IMG/VR virus record: IMGVR_UViG_3300045988_131209
Direction: 5' to 3' (one strand)
Origin: a virus
Length of the DNA: 49,086 nucleotides
Shown piece after piece: positions 3,755 through 17,233 of this stretch (positions are counted from its first letter, which is position 1; each line of letters starts with the position of its first letter). The position numbers and the translations under genes are program-made. Under the pieces are notes generated by a model. That model was not told the DNA's origin and did not search any database. It was given only the letters and a program-made list of their open reading frames with translations.

Positions 3755-4308
3755 TGTTTTTCTCCTGCTTTAATCTCATACTTGTCGTAATAAACCTTTT
3801 CCCGATCCGTAAACATCTTATCCCTAACGGTGTCGAGTAGGTGCATAAAGTCAATCTCATTGTTGACGAGATTGTTGTCGTCTTTAAAAAAGTGTTTTAC
3901 GAAATTCCGGTAGCCGATAACGGCTTTCCTTAATTCGCGCCTCTTCCGTTCCCATTCCGGCACAGGGACATATCCCCTGTCCTGCATGTAGGCAAAGAAC
4001 ATGTCGATATGGTAGAGCGCCATATCTGCCTCATTCAAAGAGAGTGAAAGAATCTTTCCGAACCACGACCTCAAAGACTTGTCCATGTTGCGGTTGTCTT
4101 CGTCGAATTTTACAAGCTCCATAGCGTATGACAGCTCTTCTCTCAGGTTGTCAGCCCGTTCTGCCAATATAGCTGCATCCATATAGCGGCCTTGGCGCAC
4201 GGCTTTCGCCGCCTTATCCATCGTTTCGCGGATATCGCGCTCAATGATGTATACCGGTCTCGTCTTCGTGTTCATGGCAACAATTGAGCTTCTGTGCATC
4301 TCACCCAC
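3751..4308 (-). CDS. Hypothetical protein
   Basis: 185-aa ORF on the operon strand. Confidence 0.55.
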   Translation of the reverse strand: MGEMHRSSIVAMNTKTRPVYIIERDIRETMDKAAKAVRQGRYMDAAILAERADNLREELSYAMELVKFDEDNRNMDKSLRSWFGKILSLSLNEADMALYHIDMFFAYMQDRGYVPVPEWERKRRELRKAVIGYRNFVKHFFKDDNNLVNNEIDFMHLLDTVRDKMFTDREKVYYDKYEIKAGEKQ

Positions 4309-8971: not shown

Positions 8972-9053
8972 TGGACGGCGCCGGAATCGAACCGGCCTCT
9001 TTGCAAAAGGTGCGCACTTTGCAATGTTTCATTCCTTTGATCACTTACCGCCC
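8972..9053 (-). tRNA. tRNA-like RNA #1 (82 nt, non-canonical; anticodon not assignable by eye)
   Basis: 7-bp acceptor GGGCGGT/GCCGTCC with G3:U70, A73; T arm GCCGG-TTCGATT-CCGGC; the 50-nt interior does not give a standard D/anticodon arm. Confidence 0.55.
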
Positions 9054-9122
9054 CAAATCTCCGTATATCCTCACGGACGACGGGGAAATACTAATCTATA
9101 ATACCATGAAAAACAAAAAAAG

Positions 9123-9281: not shown

Positions 9282-10229
9282 TCATGGGACTTCAATTTTG
9301 TCAAAGTCAATGCCCCTGTCATTCATAAAATTGCCAAGTGCAATGATGTTTTCCCGCGTTGTCGTGACCTTAAAGGCCCGTGTCAGTAGTTCGGGTTGTG
9401 CCGGTTGTGGATCCGGCTGTGGTTCGGCCGGGATAAAGGGAATGTTTCCTTGTGCTTGCATCTCCTGCCGTTTGGGCTGCTCTACCGTCTTTTGCCGTTC
9501 TTCTTCAATCCGTCTGCGCTCTTCCTCTGCCTTTATCCGTGCCTCTTCGGCTATCCGTGCCCGTTCGCGCTGCTCTTTGAGGCGGTTCGCGTACAGGATG
9601 GTCGCGGAGATGTTGAGCGTGTCCATGTAATAGGTTCGGAGCACATCGAAGTCCTCGCCGAACCCTTTGAGGGCTTCCATGTCGCTGTCGACCTTGGCAA
9701 AGATTTTCTCAATCTCCGCCTGTATGTATTTCATGCTCGCTGACTTGTTGAGCCATTCCGATTTGAAAACCTTACCAAAATCAATAAGGTTGGCATTGCC
9801 ATCGTCAAAATACGAGCGGATAACGGCTAACTTCCTATCCTTGTATTGCTGCTCGTTTTGCTTCACGACTGCATCGATTTTAGCGGAACAGTCACCGATC
9901 AACTTTACGGTTTCGGTGACAATATCCTTAAACTCGCCGAAGGGCTTCATAAACTCCTTCTCGATTTCGAGCCTTTTTTGATTCAGGGCTTTGGCCGCCT
10001 TATTAAGGGCGGCCTTGTCTTTCTTCGCCTGGTCAATGTTTTCGTCGTTATAGTTGGCGATATCGTACATTGGCAAAGCTGCTTTGACCATATCCCTAAT
10101 CTGGATAGCGTTTGTCGTAAGGCTACCCAATGTCTTTTCACTTACGATCAATTCAAGGTCGCTTTCTTTGATTGCTATAAGTTGTTGTGTTTCCATAATT
10201 TCAATTGATGATTTTGTTAATGAGTTCAT
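9282..10229 (-). CDS. DUF1351-like recombination-module protein
   Basis: 315 aa, coiled-coil, E/R-rich linker, C-terminal small domain; position next to exonuclease/annealase as in other phages. Confidence 0.5.
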   Translation of the reverse strand: MNSLTKSSIEIMETQQLIAIKESDLELIVSEKTLGSLTTNAIQIRDMVKAALPMYDIANYNDENIDQAKKDKAALNKAAKALNQKRLEIEKEFMKPFGEFKDIVTETVKLIGDCSAKIDAVVKQNEQQYKDRKLAVIRSYFDDGNANLIDFGKVFKSEWLNKSASMKYIQAEIEKIFAKVDSDMEALKGFGEDFDVLRTYYMDTLNISATILYANRLKEQRERARIAEEARIKAEEERRRIEEERQKTVEQPKRQEMQAQGNIPFIPAEPQPDPQPAQPELLTRAFKVTTTRENIIALGNFMNDRGIDFDKIEVP

Positions 10230-10866
10230 TCGCTAAACATACCCGCTTTTCCATTTCCGCAAAGACTCTTTCATCTGGGACTATGCGTACAATGTGGATC
10301 GGATCGGCCTGAAAAGGATTGTAGGCGATAAAAAATGTTTCTCTCGCCTCGGTACACATCATGTGTGCCATGCACTGATAGTAGTACTCGTACTTTACGC
10401 GTAGCAGAGATTCGTTGTCGTAAATCTCGTTTCGGTAGCGCATAAAGGTCGCCTGATTGGGACATTTTATCTCCAAGCACGACTTTATTCCGCTGCTTTC
10501 GTCGTAGCAAAACCCGTCCGGGCTGCTTGCAAAGTACGGGATGGTAGGATGCTTGCACGATCCGACCTCTACAATGTGCCGTCCGGTTATCTTTGCGAAA
10601 AGGTCACGGGCTTCTGCTTCTTGTTCGTTGCCCCATCTTATAGCCTTGCTGGTTACTTCGGTTTGCCTAATGTATTCGGCAAACAGTTCGTCGTCGGCGA
10701 TGATCACCGGATTCATTGCCCTTTCCGCTGCTACCTGATACAAGTAGCTTTTACCGGTTTCGGAAAAGGTCTCTGTGCGGCCGCTCTTCATCAGCAGTCC
10801 GACGTTACTGCCCGTTATGTGGCCACAACGGGCGCGGAACCAACCTAATGTATGTTGTGCATCCAT
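10201..10866 (-). CDS. YqaJ-like viral recombinase exonuclease (lambda Exo-type PD-(D/E)xK)
   Basis: N-terminus WFRARCGHITGSNVGLLM (YqaJ signature), 221 aa. Confidence 0.75.
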   Translation of the reverse strand: MDAQHTLGWFRARCGHITGSNVGLLMKSGRTETFSETGKSYLYQVAAERAMNPVIIADDELFAEYIRQTEVTSKAIRWGNEQEAEARDLFAKITGRHIVEVGSCKHPTIPYFASSPDGFCYDESSGIKSCLEIKCPNQATFMRYRNEIYDNESLLRVKYEYYYQCMAHMMCTEARETFFIAYNPFQADPIHIVRIVPDERVFAEMEKRVCLANELINKIIN

Positions 10867-11717
10867 TACAAAAGGGTTTTAGGTTGGGTTGGCTTCTTTT
10901 CTTTAATGGCACTCTCTTTTGCAATGTCGGCGATTTTGGTTTTTGACACTTCGCCACCCCGGAAAGGTTTCATCAAATCTTCCACGGTTGTATCGCCATC
11001 TTTTAAAGATTGTGCCATACCAAGCAACAAGGCAATCTCATTAGCCCTGATTTGATTAACAGTCTGCTTTCCACATAAGCGGATAACCTCTGCTTCCGTA
11101 ATGCCCCATTCTTCATTAAAATGGTTGATTGCGTCGATTCTCCGTTTAATCAGCTTTTCTTCGTCCGAAAGGTCTCCTGTAATAAATCTTTGTGCTGCCT
11201 TATAAACTTTGTCAACTACAGCCTTCGGAACCACCGAAAAAACAGCGTTACGGTAAGCGATTGAGTTTGCCGCATTCCCCGTAACAGTAATCATGTCGTC
11301 GGAATAACGTTTCCCTTTGCTATCCACGATGCTTCTGCGTACCTCAAATGCAGATGCCACATTTGCCTCTAAATCCCAACATGTACCACGGCTGATTATC
11401 TGCTTATCTGTGATTTGTACAACTTTCGCCTCGGTTCTCATGTTCCCCCAATTAGAGACTACTATTTTTGCCAAATGGACGGAAGGCCCTGTGATCGGTT
11501 TCCCTCCGCGGGGTAACGCATATCCGCAACTTTGTGCGGTTTCAGAGTCCATCGTAGCCATGACAATCGAATTGTCTATGCTGCGCTTTATGTTCCGGGG
11601 GTAACGCTTTGCCGTTGCCACCTGAGAGTCGACGTTTGCCCTCTCTACTGCATCAACCTGTACGACTTGTACCTCTTGTGCTTCTACAGGAAGCACTTCG
11701 TAATTTTCTAAATTCAT
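10866..11717 (-). CDS. Putative single-strand annealing protein (RecT/Redbeta-class partner of the exonuclease)
   Basis: 283 aa, start overlaps the exonuclease gene (ATGA); assignment is by synteny, no motif firmly recognised. Confidence 0.45.
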   Translation of the reverse strand: MNLENYEVLPVEAQEVQVVQVDAVERANVDSQVATAKRYPRNIKRSIDNSIVMATMDSETAQSCGYALPRGGKPITGPSVHLAKIVVSNWGNMRTEAKVVQITDKQIISRGTCWDLEANVASAFEVRRSIVDSKGKRYSDDMITVTGNAANSIAYRNAVFSVVPKAVVDKVYKAAQRFITGDLSDEEKLIKRRIDAINHFNEEWGITEAEVIRLCGKQTVNQIRANEIALLLGMAQSLKDGDTTVEDLMKPFRGGEVSKTKIADIAKESAIKEKKPTQPKTLL

Positions 11718-11741
11718 GGATAATTGATTTTAATATGTTTG

Positions 11742-11809
11742 TGGACGCCGGGGAATCGAACCCCGCCCTTTCCCTTTTGAAGAATGCTCTACCGTTGAGC
11801 TATGCGCCC
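11742..11809 (-). tRNA. tRNA-like RNA #2 (68 nt; canonical D and T arms, truncated anticodon loop)
   Basis: GGGCGC-A-TA-GCTC-AACGGTA-GAGC-A-TTCTT-CAAAA-GGGAA-AGGG-CGGGG-TTCGATT-CCCCG-GCGTCC-A; G3:U70, A73. Confidence 0.55.
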
Positions 11810-12073
11810 GTGCCGGTCTTCCCCGGCTGCCAGTATCAAAAACAAATAATAGCCTGCCTGCCTCCCGGCGGTAATATTTTAAATCTCATCCTACCGTGCT
11901 CCTGCCTACCGGACCATTGCAAACGTCAAGGTCTACCACTTTCAAGGGTTTGCGGTTGCCGGTCTGAGGCGCGGGTTACACCTTGGATGATATCTTTATC
12001 TATCGACCAAATACCTCTTTAAATTTTTTATCCAAGGCATTAAGTATTCTAATTCTTGTTGCCGGATCACAAC

Positions 12074-12439
12074 TTATATTATCAATCGAATAGATTCTAA
12101 CGAGAAGTTGTTCTCTTGAACCGCAGAAACATCCACAAGTATAAAAAGGGGCGATTTGGGGGGGTAATTGTGTTTATACCACATATGATTAGTTCCTTTT
12201 ATCGCCACATAGTTTTTAGTGACTACGAAATCGTAGGTTGTTTCTTTATAACCCGGTGTGTTAGGGTTCCCGGCTGCGCTACGGCGGACATCATAGTCGC
12301 TGTTTAAAATTTCATTCTTAGTCATCTCTATATATAATTTAGATTGAATATTAATCTTACCAATACATAGTTGTATTTTCCCATTCCCTCTGATATACAT
12401 CTTCGGGATCTTCCGTATCTTCGCATCCGTCAAAGTCAA
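12074..12439 (-). CDS. Hypothetical protein (start uncertain; ATG at 12325 gives 83 aa)
   Basis: ORF-track ORF. An alternative 39-aa acidic ORF (12357-12476) in another frame covers the 5' part. Confidence 0.4.
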   Translation of the reverse strand: MTLTDAKIRKIPKMYIRGNGKIQLCIGKINIQSKLYIEMTKNEILNSDYDVRRSAAGNPNTPGYKETTYDFVVTKNYVAIKGTNHMWYKHNYPPKSPLFILVDVSAVQENNFSLESIRLII

Positions 12440-12472
12440 TGTCGCCGTCGGGGGTGGTTATGTAGATATCTT

Positions 12473-12613
12473 TCATGCCTCAAATAATTTGAGTTTGCTC
12501 ACAGACAACCAGCATAGGCACAAGCCTATAACATTGGGTAAAAACGACTCGCTTTCCGACACTGTCAGAATAAATCCCGTGATTAGCAGGATTGCAAAAA
12601 ATACCTTTTTCAT
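12473..12613 (-). CDS. Small membrane protein (46 aa)
   Basis: MKKVFFAILLITGFILTV... hydrophobic N-terminus; its stop overlaps the next ATG (ATGA at 12473-12476). Confidence 0.35.
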   Translation of the reverse strand: MKKVFFAILLITGFILTVSESESFLPNVIGLCLCWLSVSKLKLFEA

Positions 12614-12922
12614 ATATAATGTTGATTTTAAAATTTCAAGATAAAGCCGGAGCGATCTTCACAGAGGGCTTCGGCTAACAAGTAAATGAATTGTTGTACC
12701 ATGTAATGTGGAGTGGCCATCCGGGCATTGAACCCGGTAATGCAAGCCTGTAGGGAACGTAATAAATAGAAACAACTAAATCCGGTCTCTCACCGGACGC
12801 CGTCCTTTACGGCGGAATTGGTTAATTAATAAATCATTTTTAATTGTCCCTACCTTCTTAGTTGGCCTTGCACCCTCCGGCTGATTCGATCAGCAGCATC
12901 GCGCCTTTTCAGAGGGTTTTCT

Positions 12923-12930
12923 TAACTTTG
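12923..12930 (+). promoter_or_regulatory. -7 box TAACTTTG for the lone rightward gene 12957..13160
   Basis: Exact TAnnTTTG 26 nt upstream of the ATG; the 12-mer TAACTTTGTGTC is shared with the late promoter at 20333. Confidence 0.45.
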
Positions 12931-12956
12931 TGTCGCCAAACATAAAAATTAAGAAA

Positions 12957-13160
12957 ATGAGTAATTTTATTGAAGTAATCAATTGTGGAGATGAAGAGAA
13001 AATATTAATCAATGTAGATTACATTGTTAAGATTGTACCTTATGAGGGACAATCAAGCACTATCTATTTGAACGTTAAAAGCATTAATAACTATTCTCTT
13101 CAAACAATAACAGTCAAACACTCTTATTCCGAAATTAAGAAGATGCTTGCTATTGAGTAA
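12957..13160 (+). CDS. Hypothetical small protein (67 aa), opposite strand to the surrounding operon
   Basis: ATG at 12957 within track ORF 12930..13160; own promoter box. Confidence 0.5.
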   Translation: MSNFIEVINCGDEEKILINVDYIVKIVPYEGQSSTIYLNVKSINNYSLQTITVKHSYSEIKKMLAIE

Positions 13161-13389
13161 CCCAATTGTAAAGCTGTTTGTATTTTTCAGCATTTTTGAT
13201 GCACCATATCCTGATTAGTAAATCTTCGTGGCATGGTGCATCACTCAGCCACTGAAATATCTTATTAAGACTGCTTTGAGGCAGCGTGTAACCAACAGCC
13301 TCAACAATTACCATTTTTAATTCCATGTCACTCATGTTTATTAGTATTTGATGGTTTGTGTACCCGGCAGCCGATCCGATCGACAGCAT
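13150..13389 (-). CDS. Hypothetical small protein (probable start at 13335, 61 aa)
   Basis: Track ORF; 3' end overlaps the convergent 12957..13160 gene by 11 nt. Confidence 0.45.
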   Translation of the reverse strand: MLSIGSAAGYTNHQILINMSDMELKMVIVEAVGYTLPQSSLNKIFQWLSDAPCHEDLLIRIWCIKNAEKYKQLYNWVTQ

Positions 13390-13660
13390 CGCGCCTTCGA
13401 AGCCGGGCTATATCTTGTAGCTGGATAGGTTAACCAATGTCCGAATCATAACACCTAAAGGATAGTCCAGCTTTTTTGTTATACAATGTATGTCACACAA
13501 GACTCCACGAAAAGAACGATTAAACAACATCGCGAGCGGGGAATATCTTCCCTCTTTTCATTTCACCTTGTACCGCCTTGTGATATCCCGATACCTCTTA
13601 CGTGTAACTTATGATATCGTTCAAGGACTTATATAAACCATGTCAAAGAACGCTTTTTTG

Positions 13661-13730
13661 TGGGCATCCGGGATTCGAACCCGGTCAGGAACGCTTCCCC
13701 TCACCAGCCGAACGCTTTCGGCTTATACCC
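13661..13730 (-). tRNA. tRNA-like RNA #3 (70 nt; acceptor + T arm only, body is two short hairpins)
   Basis: GGGTAT/ATGCCC acceptor (6 bp), A73; T arm CCGGG-TTCGAAT-CCCGG; interior AGCCGAA-AGCG-TTCGGCT and GGGAA-GCG-TTCCT hairpins. Confidence 0.45.
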
Positions 13731-14032
13731 TATAGATTGTTTACAGAATCAAAAGATTTGTATGCAGCTAAAGCCGCCTCGATTTCAAGCCTGGAATACA
13801 TCATGGGGGAATTTCTTCCCGTTCCATTTCTTTCCCCTTTTACATTGTGCTCCCTTTTCAACTCCTGGAGTAGCGAAGGTTTATGCCCCAGGGATTTCAG
13901 CCACCTGCAAACTTCCCGTTGGCTGATCCTATCGGAAGCCGGCGCCCGCCTCTTTTCCGCTGCTTCTGCTCCAAGCGTTGCCGCTTCGATGAGCAGGTTC
14001 TTTAGTTCAAAAAGCTCTATTTTTATCTTCAT
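13730..14032 (-). CDS. Putative excisionase-like / HTH DNA-binding protein
   Basis: 100 aa from the ATG at 14032; ISQREVCRWLKSLG...MMYSRLEIEAALA resembles HTH_17/Xis-type proteins; located in the switch-proximal early operon. Confidence 0.35.
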   Translation of the reverse strand: MKIKIELFELKNLLIEAATLGAEAAEKRRAPASDRISQREVCRWLKSLGHKPSLLQELKREHNVKGERNGTGRNSPMMYSRLEIEAALAAYKSFDSVNNL

Positions 14033-14034
14033 GG

Positions 14035-14223
14035 CTACATTGTTTTTCTCTGTATCACACATCCGTAATCTTTCAAGGCAATCTCCCGGATTAAATCGGG
14101 CTGTTCCCCTTCCGTCGCAAACCGAAGAGCGTTCCTTACGGTCTGCTCCGTTACGCCAAGTCTGGAGGCTAACTTTGTCACCATCCCTCTTTCGTACAGG
14201 ATTTTATACTTTACTATCTTCAT
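14035..14223 (-). CDS. Small HTH protein (Cro-like candidate)
   Basis: 62 aa, KLASRLGVTEQTVRNAL helix-turn-helix; second gene of the leftward operon. Confidence 0.5.
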   Translation of the reverse strand: MKIVKYKILYERGMVTKLASRLGVTEQTVRNALRFATEGEQPDLIREIALKDYGCVIQRKTM

Positions 14224-14244
14224 GTCTTTGTTTTTATATGGTTA

Positions 14245-14538
14245 TCAATCACCGTTATATCTGTTGTTTGCATAATAGTTTGTCAGCGTGTTTGCCATGA
14301 AAGCCATTGAACAAGTGCTGATGTTGCGTTTTGCATCCCGGTTTTCGCACTGCTTTTTGTTCATGTTGAAAAGCTGGTACATGCTCATTGCCTTGTTATA
14401 AGAAGTACGTTCCTCTTTCCATGCTTCTTTCATGCACTCCGCAAATGTCAACACGTGATTGCGGTACTTCTTGCCAGCTTTGAACATGTTCCAAGCTGTT
14501 TTCATGATTCTGCTTTTGTTGTACTTCGGTGCTTTCAT
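14245..14538 (-). CDS. Hypothetical protein, first gene of the leftward early operon
   Basis: 97-aa ORF divergent from the repressor gene. Confidence 0.5.
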   Translation of the reverse strand: MKAPKYNKSRIMKTAWNMFKAGKKYRNHVLTFAECMKEAWKEERTSYNKAMSMYQLFNMNKKQCENRDAKRNISTCSMAFMANTLTNYYANNRYNGD

Positions 14539-15726: not shown

Positions 15727-15748
15727 GTTTCGCAATTGTTTCGCAAAT
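15727..15748 (+). repeat. 2 x 11-bp tandem GTTTCGCAA(T/A)T, arm-type site candidates (P arm)
   Basis: Read directly; same unit as 15950-15993. Confidence 0.6.
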
Positions 15749-15804
15749 AGGTTTTATACTGATTTGTAACATACAATATCATAGCCGATTAGGATGTTTT
15801 GGAA

Positions 15805-15852
15805 ATTAGATTCCGGTTCTGAAGGTCGTGGGTTTGAATCCCACCCTGGTCA
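15805..15852 (+). other. attP core: 3' part (anticodon arm to discriminator) of a tRNA-Arg(CCG)
   Basis: TTAGA-TTCCGGT-TCTGA anticodon arm (anticodon CCG), AGGTC variable loop, GTGGG-TTTGAAT-CCCAC T arm, CCTGGTC-A acceptor; no matching 5' acceptor strand upstream. Confidence 0.7.
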
Positions 15853-15882
15853 CAGGTTTAAAAATCAATGTTTTAGACATTT

Positions 15883-15920
15883 AAGCCGTATTTCTTTTAT
15901 AGATTTACGGCTTTTATTTT
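15883..15920 (+). terminator. Rho-independent terminator after the tRNA fragment
   Basis: AAGCCGTA-N15-TACGGCTT followed by TTATTTT. Confidence 0.55.
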
Positions 15921-15949
15921 GTTCACTTTTGCTCAAAATCGCTACATTT

Positions 15950-15993
15950 GTTTCGCAATTGTTTCGCAATTGTTTCGCAATTGTTTCGCAAAA
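15950..15993 (+). repeat. 4 x 11-bp tandem GTTTCGCAATT, arm-type sites (P' arm) / int leader operator
   Basis: Read directly; begins at the last base of a TACATTTG -7 box (15943-15950) and ends 13 nt before the int ATG. Confidence 0.65.
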
Positions 15994-16006
15994 AAAGAAT
16001 AAGGAT

Positions 16007-17233
16007 ATGGCAACATTTAAAGCAGAAGTGCAGAAGCAACGGAAAGATGGGACTTTTAATATAAAGATACTTGTCACTCATAACAGGCAGCTAAAGAGAT
16101 TGCCGACCGGCATTTACATAACCAAGGATGATATGACACGATCCGGCAAAATCAAAAACCAAAAAATACTGGATCAGATAGATGATTTAATAATGCGTTA
16201 CAGGAAGAAGACTAATGAGCTATCTGTTGCAATAAACAACATGTCTATCGATAAGCTGGCAAGATATCTATGCGAACCGGAGGTTGTCTCTATTGACTTC
16301 TTGGAAGTGTTCCGGGATTACATAGACGAAAATCCGGATAAGAAAGGGGTGAGGAATTACAAATCAGCTCTAAATTCCCTCGTCAAATTCCTTGGAAGAA
16401 ACAGTCTGGATATTTCAGAGATAACAGTTCCTTTCTTGGAAAAATATGCTGCTTCTCTTGGAAAAGGTCGTGCGGTGTCCTTGTATCTTGGCAGCATGAG
16501 GCATGTTTATTCTTATGCGAAGCAAAAATACAATGACGAAGACGCAAAAAGAATATTGATCCCTTATTCGCCATTTTCACGGTATAAAGTACCCCGTCAG
16601 AATGTAGCGGAAAAGAAGGCTATAAGTGCGGAGCTTATCCGAAAGATAATAGAACTTCCGTACGATGCCACTTCGCGCGGGAAAGATAAAGAGAATCGTT
16701 ATAATTTGGCAAAGGATTGCTTTATCCTGTCATTTAGCCTTATAGGCACTAACTCTGTTGATTTATATAATGCGGAGATTTACGAGAACGACGAAATTGT
16801 ATATTGCCGGACTAAAACGAAGGATCGCCGAAGCGATAAGGCAAGAATCCAAATAAAGGTGCACCCCCATATATTACCTATATTTAAAAAATACATGGAT
16901 AAAACAGGGAAAAGGGTTTTTCGCTTTTATCAGATGTATGCAGATCAATCGACATTTAATGCAGCTTTGAACAAAGGGTTGAAGGCTGTAGGGAAAAAGG
17001 TTGGCATTCCCGGCCTTAAATTTTATGCAGCCCGGCATTCCTGGGCCACAATAGCCAGGAACGACTTAAAGACGGACAAATCAACCATAGATGAGGCCCT
17101 GAATCATATAGATAAAAGATTGTCTGTTACAGACTTGTATATAAAAAAGGATTTTTCGATTATCAACGAGGTTAATAAATCGGTCTTGGACTATGTATTC
17201 AAATCCCGTAAACCTCGTAAATCCAAACAGTAA
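16007..17233 (+). CDS. int: Tyrosine integrase with N-terminal arm-DNA-binding domain
   Basis: ATG at 16007 (the track ORF's 5' extension covers the tRNA fragment); AARHSWAT, LNH and LYIKK catalytic-region motifs; N-terminus MATFKAEVQKQRKDGTFNIKILV arm-binding type. Confidence 0.85.
   Translation: MATFKAEVQKQRKDGTFNIKILVTHNRQLKRLPTGIYITKDDMTRSGKIKNQKILDQIDDLIMRYRKKTNELSVAINNMSIDKLARYLCEPEVVSIDFLEVFRDYIDENPDKKGVRNYKSALNSLVKFLGRNSLDISEITVPFLEKYAASLGKGRAVSLYLGSMRHVYSYAKQKYNDEDAKRILIPYSPFSRYKVPRQNVAEKKAISAELIRKIIELPYDATSRGKDKENRYNLAKDCFILSFSLIGTNSVDLYNAEIYENDEIVYCRTKTKDRRSDKARIQIKVHPHILPIFKKYMDKTGKRVFRFYQMYADQSTFNAALNKGLKAVGKKVGIPGLKFYAARHSWATIARNDLKTDKSTIDEALNHIDKRLSVTDLYIKKDFSIINEVNKSVLDYVFKSRKPRKSKQ

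What the first reader, a model, noticed from the sequence alone, without database searches (positions are those of the whole stretch)
11742..11809. tRNA-like RNA #2: canonical D and T arms plus G3:U70/A73, but an anticodon loop shortened to 5 nt
The minus strand 11809->11742 reads GGGCGC-A-TA-GCTC-AACGGTA-GAGC-A-TTCTT-CAAAA-GGGAA-AGGG-CGGGG-TTCGATT-CCCCG-GCGTCC-A (68 nt). Only 20 nt separate the D and T stems, against 22-23 in a class I tRNA. The stem TTCTT/GGGAA therefore closes a 5-nt loop, or a 3-bp stem closes a 9-nt loop. The acceptor stem is 6 bp with G3:U70 and A73, as in element #1. The 5' half (GGGCGCATAGCTCA...) looks tRNA-Ala-derived. An alanine-accepting molecule without a normal anticodon loop is unexpected. 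It could be a decoy, a processing signal, or a decoder with an expanded or contracted loop.
Basis: partly seen in the sequence, partly recalled or inferred. Interest (0 to 1): 0.7.

Follow-up and report, generated by a model that had tools for sequence, protein, structure and literature searches.

The report
Anticodon-less tRNA mimic in phage operon
A conserved tRNA-shaped RNA with no usable anticodon sits about 24 bases upstream of the recombination genes of a temperate gut Bacteroidales phage, and it is most likely a handle for the host's tRNA-processing enzymes rather than a decoder or a decayed gene.

Summary
Window 11809->11742 (minus strand) is a 68-nt cloverleaf scoring 42.7 bits on Rfam tRNA. 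It has canonical D and T arms, G3:U70 and A73, a 5-nt "anticodon" loop, and one base missing from the 3' acceptor/T strand.

It is not a private deletion. I found 21 sequence variants in 55 loci (IMG/VR phages, gut metagenomes, three Parabacteroides prophages). All four helices covary. The loop is 4 nt in 19 variants and never 7.

The element always lies 19-24 nt upstream of a start codon, in front of at least six different genes. In related phages, including Bacteroides phage BF1-TP2, a bare acceptor/T-arm minihelix occupies the same slot. Only the tRNA "top half" therefore seems to matter.

Upstream lies a ~100-nt covarying RNA core that matches no Rfam family. Two more tRNA-like elements sit on the same strand (9053->8972 and 13730->13661).

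Best reading (inferred, not shown): a non-decoding tRNA mimic that RNase P, RNase Z and the CCA enzyme use to cut the early transcript. This would mature the upstream RNA and give the downstream mRNA a short leader.

Alanine identity is possible but not conserved: 4 variants have G3:C70. The 5' half matches phage tRNA-Met(CAU) genes among others, and none of the matches is tRNA-Ala.

The parts
11742..11809 (-). tRNA-like element #2 (class A), 68 nt. Acceptor 11809-11804 with 11748-11743 (G3:U70 = 11807:11745). Unpaired A7 at 11803. D arm 11800-11786. Short 'anticodon' hairpin: stem 11784-11780 with 11774-11770, loop CAAAA 11779-11775. T arm 11765-11749, T loop UUCGAUU 11760-11754. Discriminator A73 at 11742.
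   Evidence: Sequence; Rfam tRNA 42.7 bits; fold. Covariation over 16 variants: 99% of cells paired, 5 of 19 pairs with compensatory changes, slid controls 46-66% paired. Final census: 21 variants in 55 loci.
11718..11741 (-). A/U-rich 24-nt leader between A73 and the ATG (11717-11715) of the 283-aa ORF. C74 follows A73 in the class A variants; no CCA is encoded.
   Evidence: The distance from A73 to the ATG is 19-24 nt in 41 of 44 class A loci, whichever of six gene types follows.
10866..11717 (-). Downstream gene: 283-aa protein (phrog_3657, no Pfam hit). It is followed by a YqaJ-type exonuclease (10201-10866) and a DUF1351 protein (9282-10229), which together look like a recombination module.
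11812..11827 (-). Hairpin D (GCCGG-GGAAGA-CCGGC), ending 2 nt before G1 of the tRNA-like element.
   Evidence: Conserved as GCCGG-GAAAGA-CCGGC directly upstream of class A elements in most relatives, including loci that lack the core such as L123.
11857..11871 (-). Hairpin E (CCGCC-GGGA-GGC(A)GG), followed by a U-rich spacer (11856-11828).
   Evidence: The stem covaries: CCGCU/AGCAGG in L109, and an inserted U pairs with the otherwise bulged A in L127. A GAGA loop occurs in L158.
11887..11989 (-). Conserved structured RNA core (~103 nt). It is closed by P1 (CAUCC 11989-11985 with GGAUG 11891-11887). It carries the invariant strings CAGACCGGCAACCG, AGUGGUAG and CACGGUA.
   Evidence: Shared with Bacteroides phage BF1-TP2 upstream of its Erf-like gene and with 107 IMG/VR stretches. 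RNAalifold predicts 28 pairs, 15 with compensatory changes. No Rfam family matches.
8972..9053 (-). Second tRNA-like element on the same strand (class B, 82 nt). It has a 7-bp acceptor with G3:U70, A73, a canonical T arm, and a long arm with an 8-nt loop. It lies 26 nt upstream of the ATG (8945) of the DUF4494 gene and is preceded by a conserved hairpin (about 9060-9092).
   Evidence: Model R1 scores 25.8 bits, E=5.9e-6. Relatives and flanks; fold; Pfam.
13661..13730 (-). Third tRNA-like element on the same strand (class C, 70 nt). It has a 6-bp acceptor plus a 5-bp T stem, an unpaired A7, and A73.
   Evidence: Model R1 scores 19.9 bits, E=5e-4. Conserved copies occur in L038, L042, L043, L109 and L127. 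Fold z=-2.48. The C -> A -> B/E order is also seen on one strand in L120, L126 and L128.

Best explanation
Element #2 is a conserved, non-decoding tRNA mimic embedded in the leftward early transcript of a temperate Bacteroides/Parabacteroides phage.

Shown:
- The cloverleaf is under purifying selection as RNA.
- The 'anticodon' arm is just a short capped hairpin.
- The elbow-forming bases (G18, G19, T loop UUCGAUU), the acceptor/T stack and A73 are kept.
- In sister phages a bare acceptor/T-arm minihelix occupies the same slot.
- The element always sits 19-24 nt upstream of a start codon and usually downstream of a novel ~100-nt structured RNA.

Inferred mechanism: the host's tRNA-maturation enzymes recognise the tRNA top half.
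- RNase P cuts at G1. This releases the upstream RNA (the core, ending in hairpin D or directly in P1) with a defined, hairpin-protected 3' end.
- RNase Z, which acts on CCA-less precursors, cuts after A73. This leaves the recombination-gene mRNA with a short, unstructured, A/U-rich leader.
- The excised 68-nt piece may then receive CCA and, in the G3:U70 variants, possibly alanine, as a by-product or a secondary function.

Together with the two other tRNA-like elements on the same strand, this amounts to tRNA-type punctuation of a phage operon.
For: - Real and selected: Rfam 42.7 bits. There are 21 variants in 55 loci. 99% of cells pair, 5 of 19 pairs show compensatory change, and slid controls pair only 46-66%.
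- Not a decoder: loops are 4, 5 or 6 nt and never 7, and ARAGORN calls on relatives are inconsistent.
- Only the top half is needed: the cloverleaf (44 loci) and the BF1-type minihelix UCCGGG-UUCGACU-CCCGGA-GGCUG-A (89 loci) occupy the same position behind the same core. They sit in front of overlapping sets of genes (MERS[E/D]SIK..., MPILKKTD...).
- Fixed position: A73 to ATG is 19-24 nt before six unrelated N-termini. The orientation always matches the gene.
- Coupling to the upstream RNA: nearly all core-bearing loci carry a cloverleaf or minihelix 3' of it (63 of 66 unique sequences). The tRNA-like element also occurs without an intact core in L123 and L115. This is the expected asymmetry if the tRNA-like part serves the upstream RNA.
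- A stable hairpin ends 2-5 nt before G1 in classes A and B.
- Repetition: three same-strand tRNA-like elements occur in the window. The same C -> A -> B/E order is seen in L120, L126 and L128.
- No CCA is encoded. A host-type tRNA-Val gene on L043 also lacks CCA, so an RNase Z/CCA-adding route is plausible in these hosts.
Against: - There are no transcript-end or cleavage data; every enzymatic step is inference.
- The acceptor/T stack has 11 rather than 12 layers. The base at -1 is not conserved and only C74 of the CCA is present, so it may be a poor RNase P substrate.
- A pure processing role does not explain why G3:U70 with A73 is kept in 17 of 21 variants and recurs in class B.
- Class C (13730->13661) is not directly upstream of an ORF, so 'leader maker' cannot be the whole story.
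- Most intergenic gaps of the operon have no such element.
- The acceptor-like helix of the BF1 minihelix is only 4-5 bp and is not recovered by minimum-energy folding.
Confidence: 0.5

Rival explanations
1. Alanine-accepting tRNA mimic. After excision and CCA addition the element is charged by AlaRS through G3:U70/A73. It then acts in trans as an anticodon-less Ala carrier. Possible roles: interfering with or exploiting tmRNA/SmpB-type ribosome rescue, titrating AlaRS or EF-Tu, or feeding a tRNA-dependent transferase.
For: - G3:U70 plus A73 occurs in the window, in 17 of 21 variants (43 of 55 loci), and again in the class B element at 9053->8972.
- The divergent P. segnis copy changes pairs 5:68 and 6:67 but keeps G3:U70.
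- Established knowledge: AlaRS charges minihelices that carry G3:U70.
- In a metagenome scan, unrelated tRNA-likes with shortened anticodon arms often had G3:U70: 11 of 21 parsed hits with 22-nt D-to-T spacing, against 2 of 33 with 23 nt. Redundancy was not removed.
Against: - Four otherwise intact variants (12 loci) have G3:C70.
- The interchangeable BF1 minihelix has its G.U at 2:71 or none at all.
- No CCA is encoded, and the 11-layer stack deviates from AlaRS and EF-Tu substrates.
- G:U versus G:C at one pair is also what neutral drift in a helix gives.
- The likely ancestor is not tRNA-Ala.
Confidence: 0.15
2. Retained 5' structure. The element is not removed, or is cut only on its 5' side. 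It stays at the 5' end of the mRNA as a protective cap-like fold against 5'-end-dependent RNases. Alternatively it acts as a docking or standby structure that helps Shine-Dalgarno-independent initiation in Bacteroidetes.
For: - The element keeps a strict 19-24 nt spacing to the ATG, with an A/U-rich leader, in front of many different genes.
- The 5' end is buried in the acceptor helix.
Against: - This does not explain why a tRNA shape specifically, with invariant T loop and D-loop GG, is conserved rather than any stable hairpin.
- Class C is not next to a start codon.
Confidence: 0.15
3. Decoy or sponge for host factors that recognise the tRNA body. Candidates are toxins or defence enzymes acting on the acceptor end or elbow, and tRNA-modifying enzymes.
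For: - The elbow and acceptor/T features are conserved while the anticodon is dispensable.
- Several copies occur per phage.
- The element sits in the early operon, which is expressed when defences act.
Against: - No defence or anti-defence gene is linked to it.
- The fixed position before start codons and behind the core RNA is not required of a decoy.
- Copy number is low.
- Anticodon nucleases, the best known tRNA-targeting defences, could not be decoyed by it.
Confidence: 0.08
4. Non-functional remnant or DNA-level element. Candidates are a decaying phage tRNA gene, an att-site fragment, or a conserved junction sequence that merely serves homologous recombination between gene modules.
For: - The element lies at a mosaic junction, with different genes downstream of the same element.
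- Phage genomes do carry tRNA fragments, such as element #1.
Against: - Compensatory changes in four helices and 99% pairing indicate selection on RNA structure.
- The short loop is maintained across Bacteroides and Parabacteroides phages.
- The integrase and its own attP-like tRNA fragment lie 4 kb away.
Confidence: 0.05
5. Working decoder: tRNA-Phe(AAA) as ARAGORN calls it, or a tRNA with a contracted or expanded loop that reads unusual codons.
For: ARAGORN call. A 4-bp stem with the 7-nt loop UCAAAAG can be drawn for the window lineage only.
Against: - That drawing has C33, an unmodifiable-looking A34, an A.A stem mismatch and a C.A acceptor pair.
- 19 of 21 variants have 4-nt loops, which can only open to 6 or 8 nt.
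- No anticodon is shared among relatives.
- ORFs in the window read normally in code 11.
Confidence: 0.02

Closest known systems
mascRNA / MEN-beta tRNA-like elements at the 3' ends of MALAT1 and NEAT1 (vertebrate nuclear lncRNAs)
   Same: A cloverleaf with good acceptor and T arms but a short, non-conserved anticodon arm. It lies immediately 3' of a structured non-coding RNA. It is used there as an RNase P/RNase Z/CCA-enzyme substrate to make the upstream RNA's 3' end. The leading GG with a weakened acceptor stem is the known trigger for CCACCA tagging.
   Different: No homology: Rfam mascRNA-menRNA scores 18.7 bits against a gathering score of 42.5. The host here is a bacterial virus. The element is also the 5' boundary of a protein-coding mRNA. 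Processing has not been shown.
tRNA punctuation of polycistronic transcripts (animal mitochondria; bacterial operons with embedded tRNAs such as tufB; synthetic tRNA-gRNA arrays)
   Same: tRNA-shaped units lie between functional RNAs on one strand. Their position implies cutting by RNase P and RNase Z. Several units occur per transcript (three in this window).
   Different: Those punctuation marks are real decoding tRNAs. Here they are anticodon-less mimics or bare minihelices, and only some gene junctions carry one.
Phage P1/P7 C4 and P4 CI immunity RNAs (Rfam C4 antisense RNA)
   Same: Small structured phage RNAs cut out of the leader of an early or immunity operon, with RNase P making an end. 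They sit in the same general genomic neighbourhood, the early leftward operon of a temperate phage.
   Different: Rfam lists no C4 match. C4 and CI act by antisense loops. I found no complementarity of 12 nt or more between the element or core and the same-strand transcript.
tmRNA tRNA-like domain and tRNA-Ala acceptor/T minihelices
   Same: G3:U70 with A73, a canonical T arm, and no anticodon.
   Different: There is no tag reading frame and no pseudoknots. ARAGORN finds no tmRNA, and the only Rfam tmRNA hit is weak and off-target (10.3 bits at 13667-13700, gathering 47). A full D arm is present. G3:U70 is not universal in the family.
Plant-virus 3' tRNA-like structures (TYMV, BMV, TMV)
   Same: A viral RNA element that mimics the tRNA top half to recruit host tRNA enzymes.
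   Different: Those sit at the 3' end of an RNA genome, are pseudoknotted and are aminoacylated in place. This one is internal, lies 5' of a gene in a DNA phage transcript, and is a plain cloverleaf.
Phage attP sites overlapping tRNA genes
   Same: tRNA-derived sequence in a temperate phage.
   Different: This window has such a site at element #1 (15787-15853), next to the integrase and flanked by arm-type repeats. Element #2 is 4 kb away, is a complete cloverleaf, and evolves by compensatory change.

Membership tests
Canonical decoding tRNA | Rfam RF00005 score above the gathering threshold | tested here: met
   42.7 bits against 29. This shows tRNA shape, not decoding ability.
Canonical decoding tRNA | 7-nt anticodon loop with U33 and a purine at 37, closed by a 5-bp stem | tested here: not met
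   The window has the 5-nt loop CAAAA. Loops are 4 nt in 19 of 21 variants, 6 nt in one, and never 7. ARAGORN's 7-nt alternative has C33 and a 4-bp stem with an A.A mismatch.
Canonical decoding tRNA | The same anticodon in orthologous copies | tested here: not met
   ARAGORN gives Phe(aaa) for the window, Ser(gga) for L010, 'tRNA-???' with two-base anticodons in 12 loci, and no call at the element in 6.
Canonical decoding tRNA | 7-bp acceptor plus 5-bp T stem (12 stacked pairs) | tested here: not met
   The 3' strand from T loop to A73 is 11 nt in all 21 variants, and A7 is unpaired or opposite a purine.
Canonical decoding tRNA | D-loop G18 G19 and T loop U54-U55-C56...A58 (elbow) | tested here: met
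   The GG of the D loop and UUCGAUU are invariant in alignment A2. Only the divergent P. segnis copy has UCCGACU.
tRNA-Ala / AlaRS substrate | G3:U70 wobble pair | tested here: inconclusive
   Present in the window and in 17 of 21 variants. It is G3:C70 in 4 variants (12 loci). It is absent at 3:70 in the BF1-type minihelix.
tRNA-Ala / AlaRS substrate | A73 discriminator and a free 3' CCA end | tested here: inconclusive
   A73 is invariant. CCA is not encoded; A73 is followed by CAA, CAC or CGA. A free end would require processing, which cannot be tested here.
tRNA-Ala / AlaRS substrate | Sequence relationship to tRNA-Ala genes | tested here: not met
   The identical 5' half occurs in phage tRNA-Met(CAT) three times, Ile(TAT), Gln(TTG) and Leu(TAA). 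Model R1 scores those genes 41-52 bits (the Gln gene 32.7) and a phage tRNA-Ala(TGC) 27.7 bits.
tRNA-Ala / AlaRS substrate | Actual alanylation | not testable with these tools
   Needs an in vitro charging assay or an acid-gel Northern blot.
tmRNA | Split tRNA-like domain, tag-peptide reading frame, pseudoknots | tested here: not met
   ARAGORN finds no tmRNA. The only Rfam tmRNA hit is a 10.3-bit fragment at 13667-13700, against a gathering score of 47.
mascRNA-type processing module (works-like comparison, not homology) | tRNA-like fold with a degenerate anticodon arm directly 3' of a structured ncRNA | tested here: met
   The core RNA at 11989-11887 has 15 of 28 pairs covarying. It is followed by the tRNA-like element or minihelix in nearly all core loci (63 of 66 unique sequences).
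mascRNA-type processing module (works-like comparison, not homology) | Cleavage by RNase P and RNase Z, and CCA addition | not testable with these tools
mascRNA-type processing module (works-like comparison, not homology) | Membership of Rfam RF01684 | tested here: not met
   18.7 bits against 42.5, E=1.5.
C4/CI phage antisense RNAs | Match to the Rfam C4 model; loops complementary to sites in the same operon | tested here: not met
   Rfam lists no C4 match at gathering or at E<=5. No same-strand complement of 12 nt or more was found.
attP tRNA fragment | Adjacent to the integrase, flanked by arm-type repeats, usually only the 3' part of a tRNA | tested here: not met
   The integrase gene is at about 16008-17233, with its own tRNA fragment and GTTTCGCAATT repeats. 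Element #2 is a complete cloverleaf inside the recombination operon.

The most novel reading that the evidence does not exclude
The excised element is a genuinely alanine-charged, anticodon-less tRNA mimic that acts in trans, for example on ribosome rescue, AlaRS or EF-Tu, or a tRNA-dependent transferase. On this reading it belongs to a wider, unrecognised class of G3:U70 tRNA-likes whose anticodon loop is replaced by a small capped hairpin. Unrelated examples turned up next to ordinary tRNA genes in environmental metagenomes. Its co-transcription with a novel ~100-nt structured RNA would then make the pair a new two-part phage riboregulator rather than simple punctuation.
Probability: 0.12. 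Interest if true: 0.85.

Novelty: new variant of a known kind. Interest (0 to 1): 0.62.

Why it matters
Viral RNAs that borrow the tRNA shape are known from plant RNA viruses, from tmRNA and from vertebrate lncRNA processing. A conserved family of anticodon-less tRNA mimics and minihelices placed before genes in DNA-phage operons is not in Rfam, and I did not find it in the searchable literature.

If these elements recruit RNase P and RNase Z, abundant human-gut Bacteroidales phages cut their early transcripts with the host's tRNA machinery. That would be a natural counterpart of mitochondrial tRNA punctuation and of engineered tRNA-gRNA arrays. It would also tie into how genes are expressed in a phylum that lacks Shine-Dalgarno-dependent initiation.

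The finding has a practical side as well. tRNA finders call these elements as odd tRNAs (Phe, Ser or '???'), which pollutes phage tRNA and codon-usage or recoding analyses.

The linked ~100-nt core RNA is a well-supported new structured RNA with a cultured model system, BF1-TP2 on B. fragilis.

Tried and rejected
- Known RNA families. Rfam found only tRNA at gathering score over the whole window. A permissive scan (E<=5) of 11600-13700 and a separate scan (E<=1) of L011, L003 and L007 found nothing real for the core or the hairpins.
- Antisense targets. I looked for 10-mers of the core and tRNA-like region complementary to the same-strand transcript. Only scattered 10-11-mers appeared, so a C4/CI-like model was dropped.
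- Isolated phages. blastn of the element with its flank against 50,697 GenBank phage records gave no match. The core with minihelix matches only BF1-TP2, where it is not annotated as an RNA (the match overlaps only a 'hypothetical protein' CDS).
- BF1-TP2 itself. It has no class A, B or D element: R1 and ARAGORN found nothing, and I inspected the gap upstream of its DUF4494 gene.
- Genome scan. 34 of 37 hits were chance matches in GC-rich genomes. Only three Parabacteroides prophages were real.
- Promoter in the spacer. The sigma-70 scan was at background level (6 sites against 5.8 expected). I saw no conserved Bacteroides-type -7 motif between hairpin E and hairpin D, so transcription from upstream is assumed.
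- Coding explanations. The overlapping plus-strand ORF 11609-12022 is incompatible with the indels and large insertions seen among relatives.
- Literature. Five successful full-text searches found no description of this element. The 2023 catalogue of about 10,000 candidate structured RNAs in viruses and phages mentions tRNA-like candidates, but its tables are not held, so overlap could not be checked.
Full report
**1. The observation**

Rfam's tRNA model matches it end to end at 42.7 bits, against a gathering score of 29 and with E=7.9e-6 for the window. The thermodynamic optimum is the same cloverleaf at -25.4 kcal/mol, z=-2.44, with 3 of 200 shuffles as good.

The D arm (GCUC/AACGGUA/GAGC) and the T arm (CGGGG/UUCGAUU/CCCCG) are canonical. 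The acceptor has six pairs with G3:U70, and A73 follows. The middle arm is UUCUU/GGGAA around a five-base loop.

There is a second anomaly. The 3' strand between the T loop and A73 has 11 bases instead of 12, so A7 has no Watson-Crick partner.

ARAGORN does report 'tRNA-Phe (aaa)'. Its drawing needs a C.A pair on top of the acceptor, three bases before the D stem, an A.A mismatch in a four-pair anticodon stem, and a loop UCAAAAG with C33. I treat that as a forced fit.

**2. It is a conserved family, and the short arm is the conserved state**

The flanking non-coding DNA matched one cultured phage, Bacteroides phage BF1-TP2, upstream of its Erf-like gene. Pattern scans then recovered the following:
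- 107 IMG/VR stretches with the shared upstream motif.
- 54 stretches with the T-arm/acceptor pattern.
- Three prophages, in Parabacteroides hominis, P. segnis and P. leei.
- Further copies in gut metagenome assemblies.

In all, the cloverleaf occurs as 21 distinct sequences in 55 loci.

On 16 of these variants, 99.0% of pair cells are standard pairs. Five of 19 pairs show compensatory changes (16 cells). No shuffle out of 500 reached the observed pairing or covariation score. Sliding the 3' partners by 1-3 columns drops pairing to 46-66%.

The middle stem covaries (UUCUU/GGGAA, UUCUU/AGGAA, UCCCC/GGGGA, UUCCC/GGGAA, UCACC/GGUGA). Its loop is four bases in 19 variants, five only in the window lineage, six in one, and never seven. 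ARAGORN accordingly labels relatives 'tRNA-???' with two-base anticodons, or Ser, or nothing.

The truncation is conserved, so it is functional design and neither a private deletion nor an assembly error. It also removes any decoding role.

**3. Ancestry and alanine identity**

A scan for the 24-base 5' half found the tRNA-like copies. It also found ordinary phage tRNA genes with 7-nt loops: Met(CAT) in three contigs, Ile(TAT), Gln(TTG) and Leu(TAA), but no Ala. The covariance model of the family (R1) scores those tRNAs 41-52 bits (the Gln gene 32.7) and a phage tRNA-Ala 27.7 bits. The Met-type genes have G3:C70 and A7:U66.

The element therefore looks like a remodelled phage tRNA of that general type rather than a tRNA-Ala derivative. 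G3:U70 is present in 17 variants (43 loci) and is G3:C70 in four (12 loci). A73 is invariant. Alanine identity is possible in most copies, but the family does not require it.

**4. Context: what travels with it**

The element is always in the sense orientation. It lies 19-24 nt upstream of an ATG across an A/U-rich leader. The genes that follow have at least six unrelated N-termini. In the window the gene is a 283-aa phrog_3657 protein, followed by a YqaJ exonuclease and a DUF1351 protein, which together look like a recombination module.

In BF1-type phages the same slot holds only a T-arm hairpin with a short acceptor-like helix and a discriminator A (UCCGGG-UUCGACU-CCCGGA-GGCUG-A). That is 11 bases on the 3' side again. 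It occurs in 89 loci, 19-30 nt before the ATG in nearly all, and partly before the same genes.

The D arm and middle arm are therefore dispensable. What is kept is the acceptor/T 'top half', the part recognised by RNase P, RNase Z, the CCA-adding enzyme, AlaRS and EF-Tu (established knowledge).

Several other conserved RNA features surround it:
- A small hairpin (GCCGG-GRAAGA-CCGGC) ends 2-4 nt before G1 in most cloverleaf loci.
- Upstream lies a ~103-nt core (11989-11887). RNAalifold supports 28 pairs, 15 with compensatory changes. No Rfam family matches it.
- Nearly every core is followed by a cloverleaf or minihelix (63 of 66 unique sequences). The cloverleaf can also occur without an intact core, as in L123 and L115.
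- Between core and cloverleaf, different phages carry optional modules: an intrinsic-terminator-like hairpin pair, a covarying GNRA hairpin (11871-11857), and an A/U-rich spacer.

**5. It is not alone in this genome**

Searching the window with R1, with filters off, found two more tRNA-like elements on the same strand.
- 9053->8972 scores 25.8 bits. It has a 7-bp acceptor with G3:U70 and A73. It lies 26 nt before the ATG of the DUF4494 gene and is preceded by a conserved hairpin.
- 13730->13661 scores 19.9 bits. It has a 6+5-bp stack, an unpaired A7, and A73.

Both have conserved relatives and fold as cloverleaf-like structures. An independent acceptor/T-arm scan found the same three elements and no comparably convincing candidate. 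The same left-to-right order of classes recurs in other contigs: L120, L126 and L128. BF1-type phages have yet another class, 13 nt before a small ORF. There are also 51-60-nt minimal versions made of a 5-bp acceptor and a 6-bp T arm.

It is a 3' tRNA fragment flanked by GTTTCGCAATT repeats and a terminator hairpin, just upstream of the real integrase start. That makes it an attP-type site, and it has U3:G70.

**6. Mechanism**

Shown: this is a selected, non-decoding tRNA mimic whose top half alone is interchangeable. It is fixed in position before start codons and behind a structured RNA, and it is repeated along one operon.

Inferred: the host's tRNA-maturation enzymes use it as a cutting site. 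RNase P at G1 would leave the upstream RNA with a hairpin-protected 3' end. RNase Z after A73 would leave the downstream mRNA with a roughly 20-nt unstructured leader. No CCA is encoded in the element, and a host-type tRNA-Val on L043 also lacks it.

This is how MALAT1/mascRNA and mitochondrial tRNA punctuation work, but there is no homology to either. I put this at about 0.5.

The main unexplained residue is the frequent G3:U70/A73. It keeps an alanylation-dependent role alive at about 0.15. A metagenome scan lends it some interest, because unrelated tRNA-likes with capped, shortened anticodon arms often carried G3:U70. Those counts are small and were not corrected for redundancy.

The remaining readings rank as follows:
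- Retained 5' protective or ribosome-docking structure: about 0.15.
- Decoy for tRNA-binding host factors: about 0.08.
- Remnant or DNA-level junction element: about 0.05.
- Working decoder: about 0.02.

**7. Novelty and verdict**

The kind of thing, a viral tRNA mimic or tRNA-like processing signal, is known. This family is absent from Rfam, is not annotated as an RNA in the one cultured phage that carries its minihelix form, and does not appear in the literature I could search. The same holds for its minihelix equivalents, its placement before genes in Bacteroidales phage early operons, and the linked core RNA.

I rate it a new variant of a known kind, with moderate to high interest (0.62). 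The caveat is that every enzymatic step remains to be demonstrated.

Noticed in passing
window 11887-11989 (-); L001 about 4000-4110; 107 IMG/VR loci: A ~100-nt structured RNA core with P1, P2 and P3 helices and the invariant strings CAGACCGGCAACCG, AGUGGUAG and CACGGUA. 15 of 28 predicted pairs show compensatory changes, and no Rfam family matches. It lies upstream of SSAP, ATPase or SbcC-like genes in Bacteroides and Parabacteroides temperate phages.
   Followed up: partly
window 8972-9053 (-), with upstream hairpin at about 9060-9092: A second tRNA-like element (82 nt, G3:U70, A73, 8-bp middle stem with an 8-nt loop), 26 nt before the DUF4494 gene. It is preceded by a hairpin with the conserved loop UCCGUGAGGAUAU, which also precedes minimal 51-60-nt tRNA-likes in other phages (L037, L118).
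   Followed up: partly
window 13661-13730 (-): A third tRNA-like element (6-bp acceptor plus 5-bp T stem, unpaired A7, A73), directly after the stop of ORF 13730..14062. It is followed by a conserved block with inverted repeats (GATATC...), possibly an operator/promoter region. It overlaps the plus-strand ORF 13611-14300, which is therefore doubtful.
   Followed up: partly
window 15728-16010 (+): Element #1 (15787-15853) is a 3' tRNA fragment. GTTTCGCAATT repeats lie upstream (15728-15750) and occur four times downstream (about 15950-15990), and a terminator-like hairpin sits at about 15885-15915. The integrase probably starts at ATG 16008, not 15794. This looks like a classic attP, and it has U3:G70, not G3:U70.
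   Followed up: partly
window 13362-13412 (-) and 12868-12925 (-): Two copies of another motif: GAA(A)AGGCGCGAUGCUG plus a small hairpin (UCGAU/AUCGG versus CUGAU/AUCAG). Each is enclosed by a helix that differs between the copies (CCCGGC/GCCGGG versus CCCUC/GAGGG). No Rfam match.
   Followed up: no
window 12770-12830 (-) and 12715-12740 (-): A hairpin pair UUCCGCCGUAAAGGACGGCG / UCCGGUGAGAGACCGGA followed by a U-rich run, which looks like an intrinsic terminator. The same module sits between core and tRNA-like element in L011-type phages. It is followed by a T-arm-like hairpin ACCGGG-UUCAAUG-CCCGGA.
   Followed up: no
window 12000-12476 (-): A 39-aa ORF (12476..12357) is homologous to BF1-TP2 gp2. 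The conserved peptide ...SCDPATRIRILNALDKKFKEVFGR* ends at 12000 and is out of frame with ORF 12439..12074. This could be a frameshift, a separate small gene or a mis-called ORF.
   Followed up: no
L121, L132, L137 (unrelated IMG/VR contigs): Mini tmRNA-like tRNA domains: GGGCGU...GGAUUCGACG, a short hairpin, a T arm and ACGUCCACCA, in about 65 nt. No mRNA-like part is evident.
   Followed up: no
L203, L211, L272, L276, L285; L247, L260; L298; L273, L275 (metagenome contigs): Unrelated tRNA-like genes whose anticodon loop is replaced by a tetraloop-capped stem (GAGA, GCAA, GAAA, GUAA and others). Several lie next to normal tRNA genes, and many have G3:U70. G3:U70 occurred in 11 of 21 parsed hits with 22-nt D-to-T spacing, against 2 of 33 with 23 nt. 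Redundancy was not removed.
   Followed up: partly
L048 and L123 (same contig IMGVR_UViG_3300029575_000004): One phage carries two class A cloverleaves. One lies behind the core. The other has no core, lies behind a terminator-like hairpin pair and lies before a different gene.
   Followed up: partly
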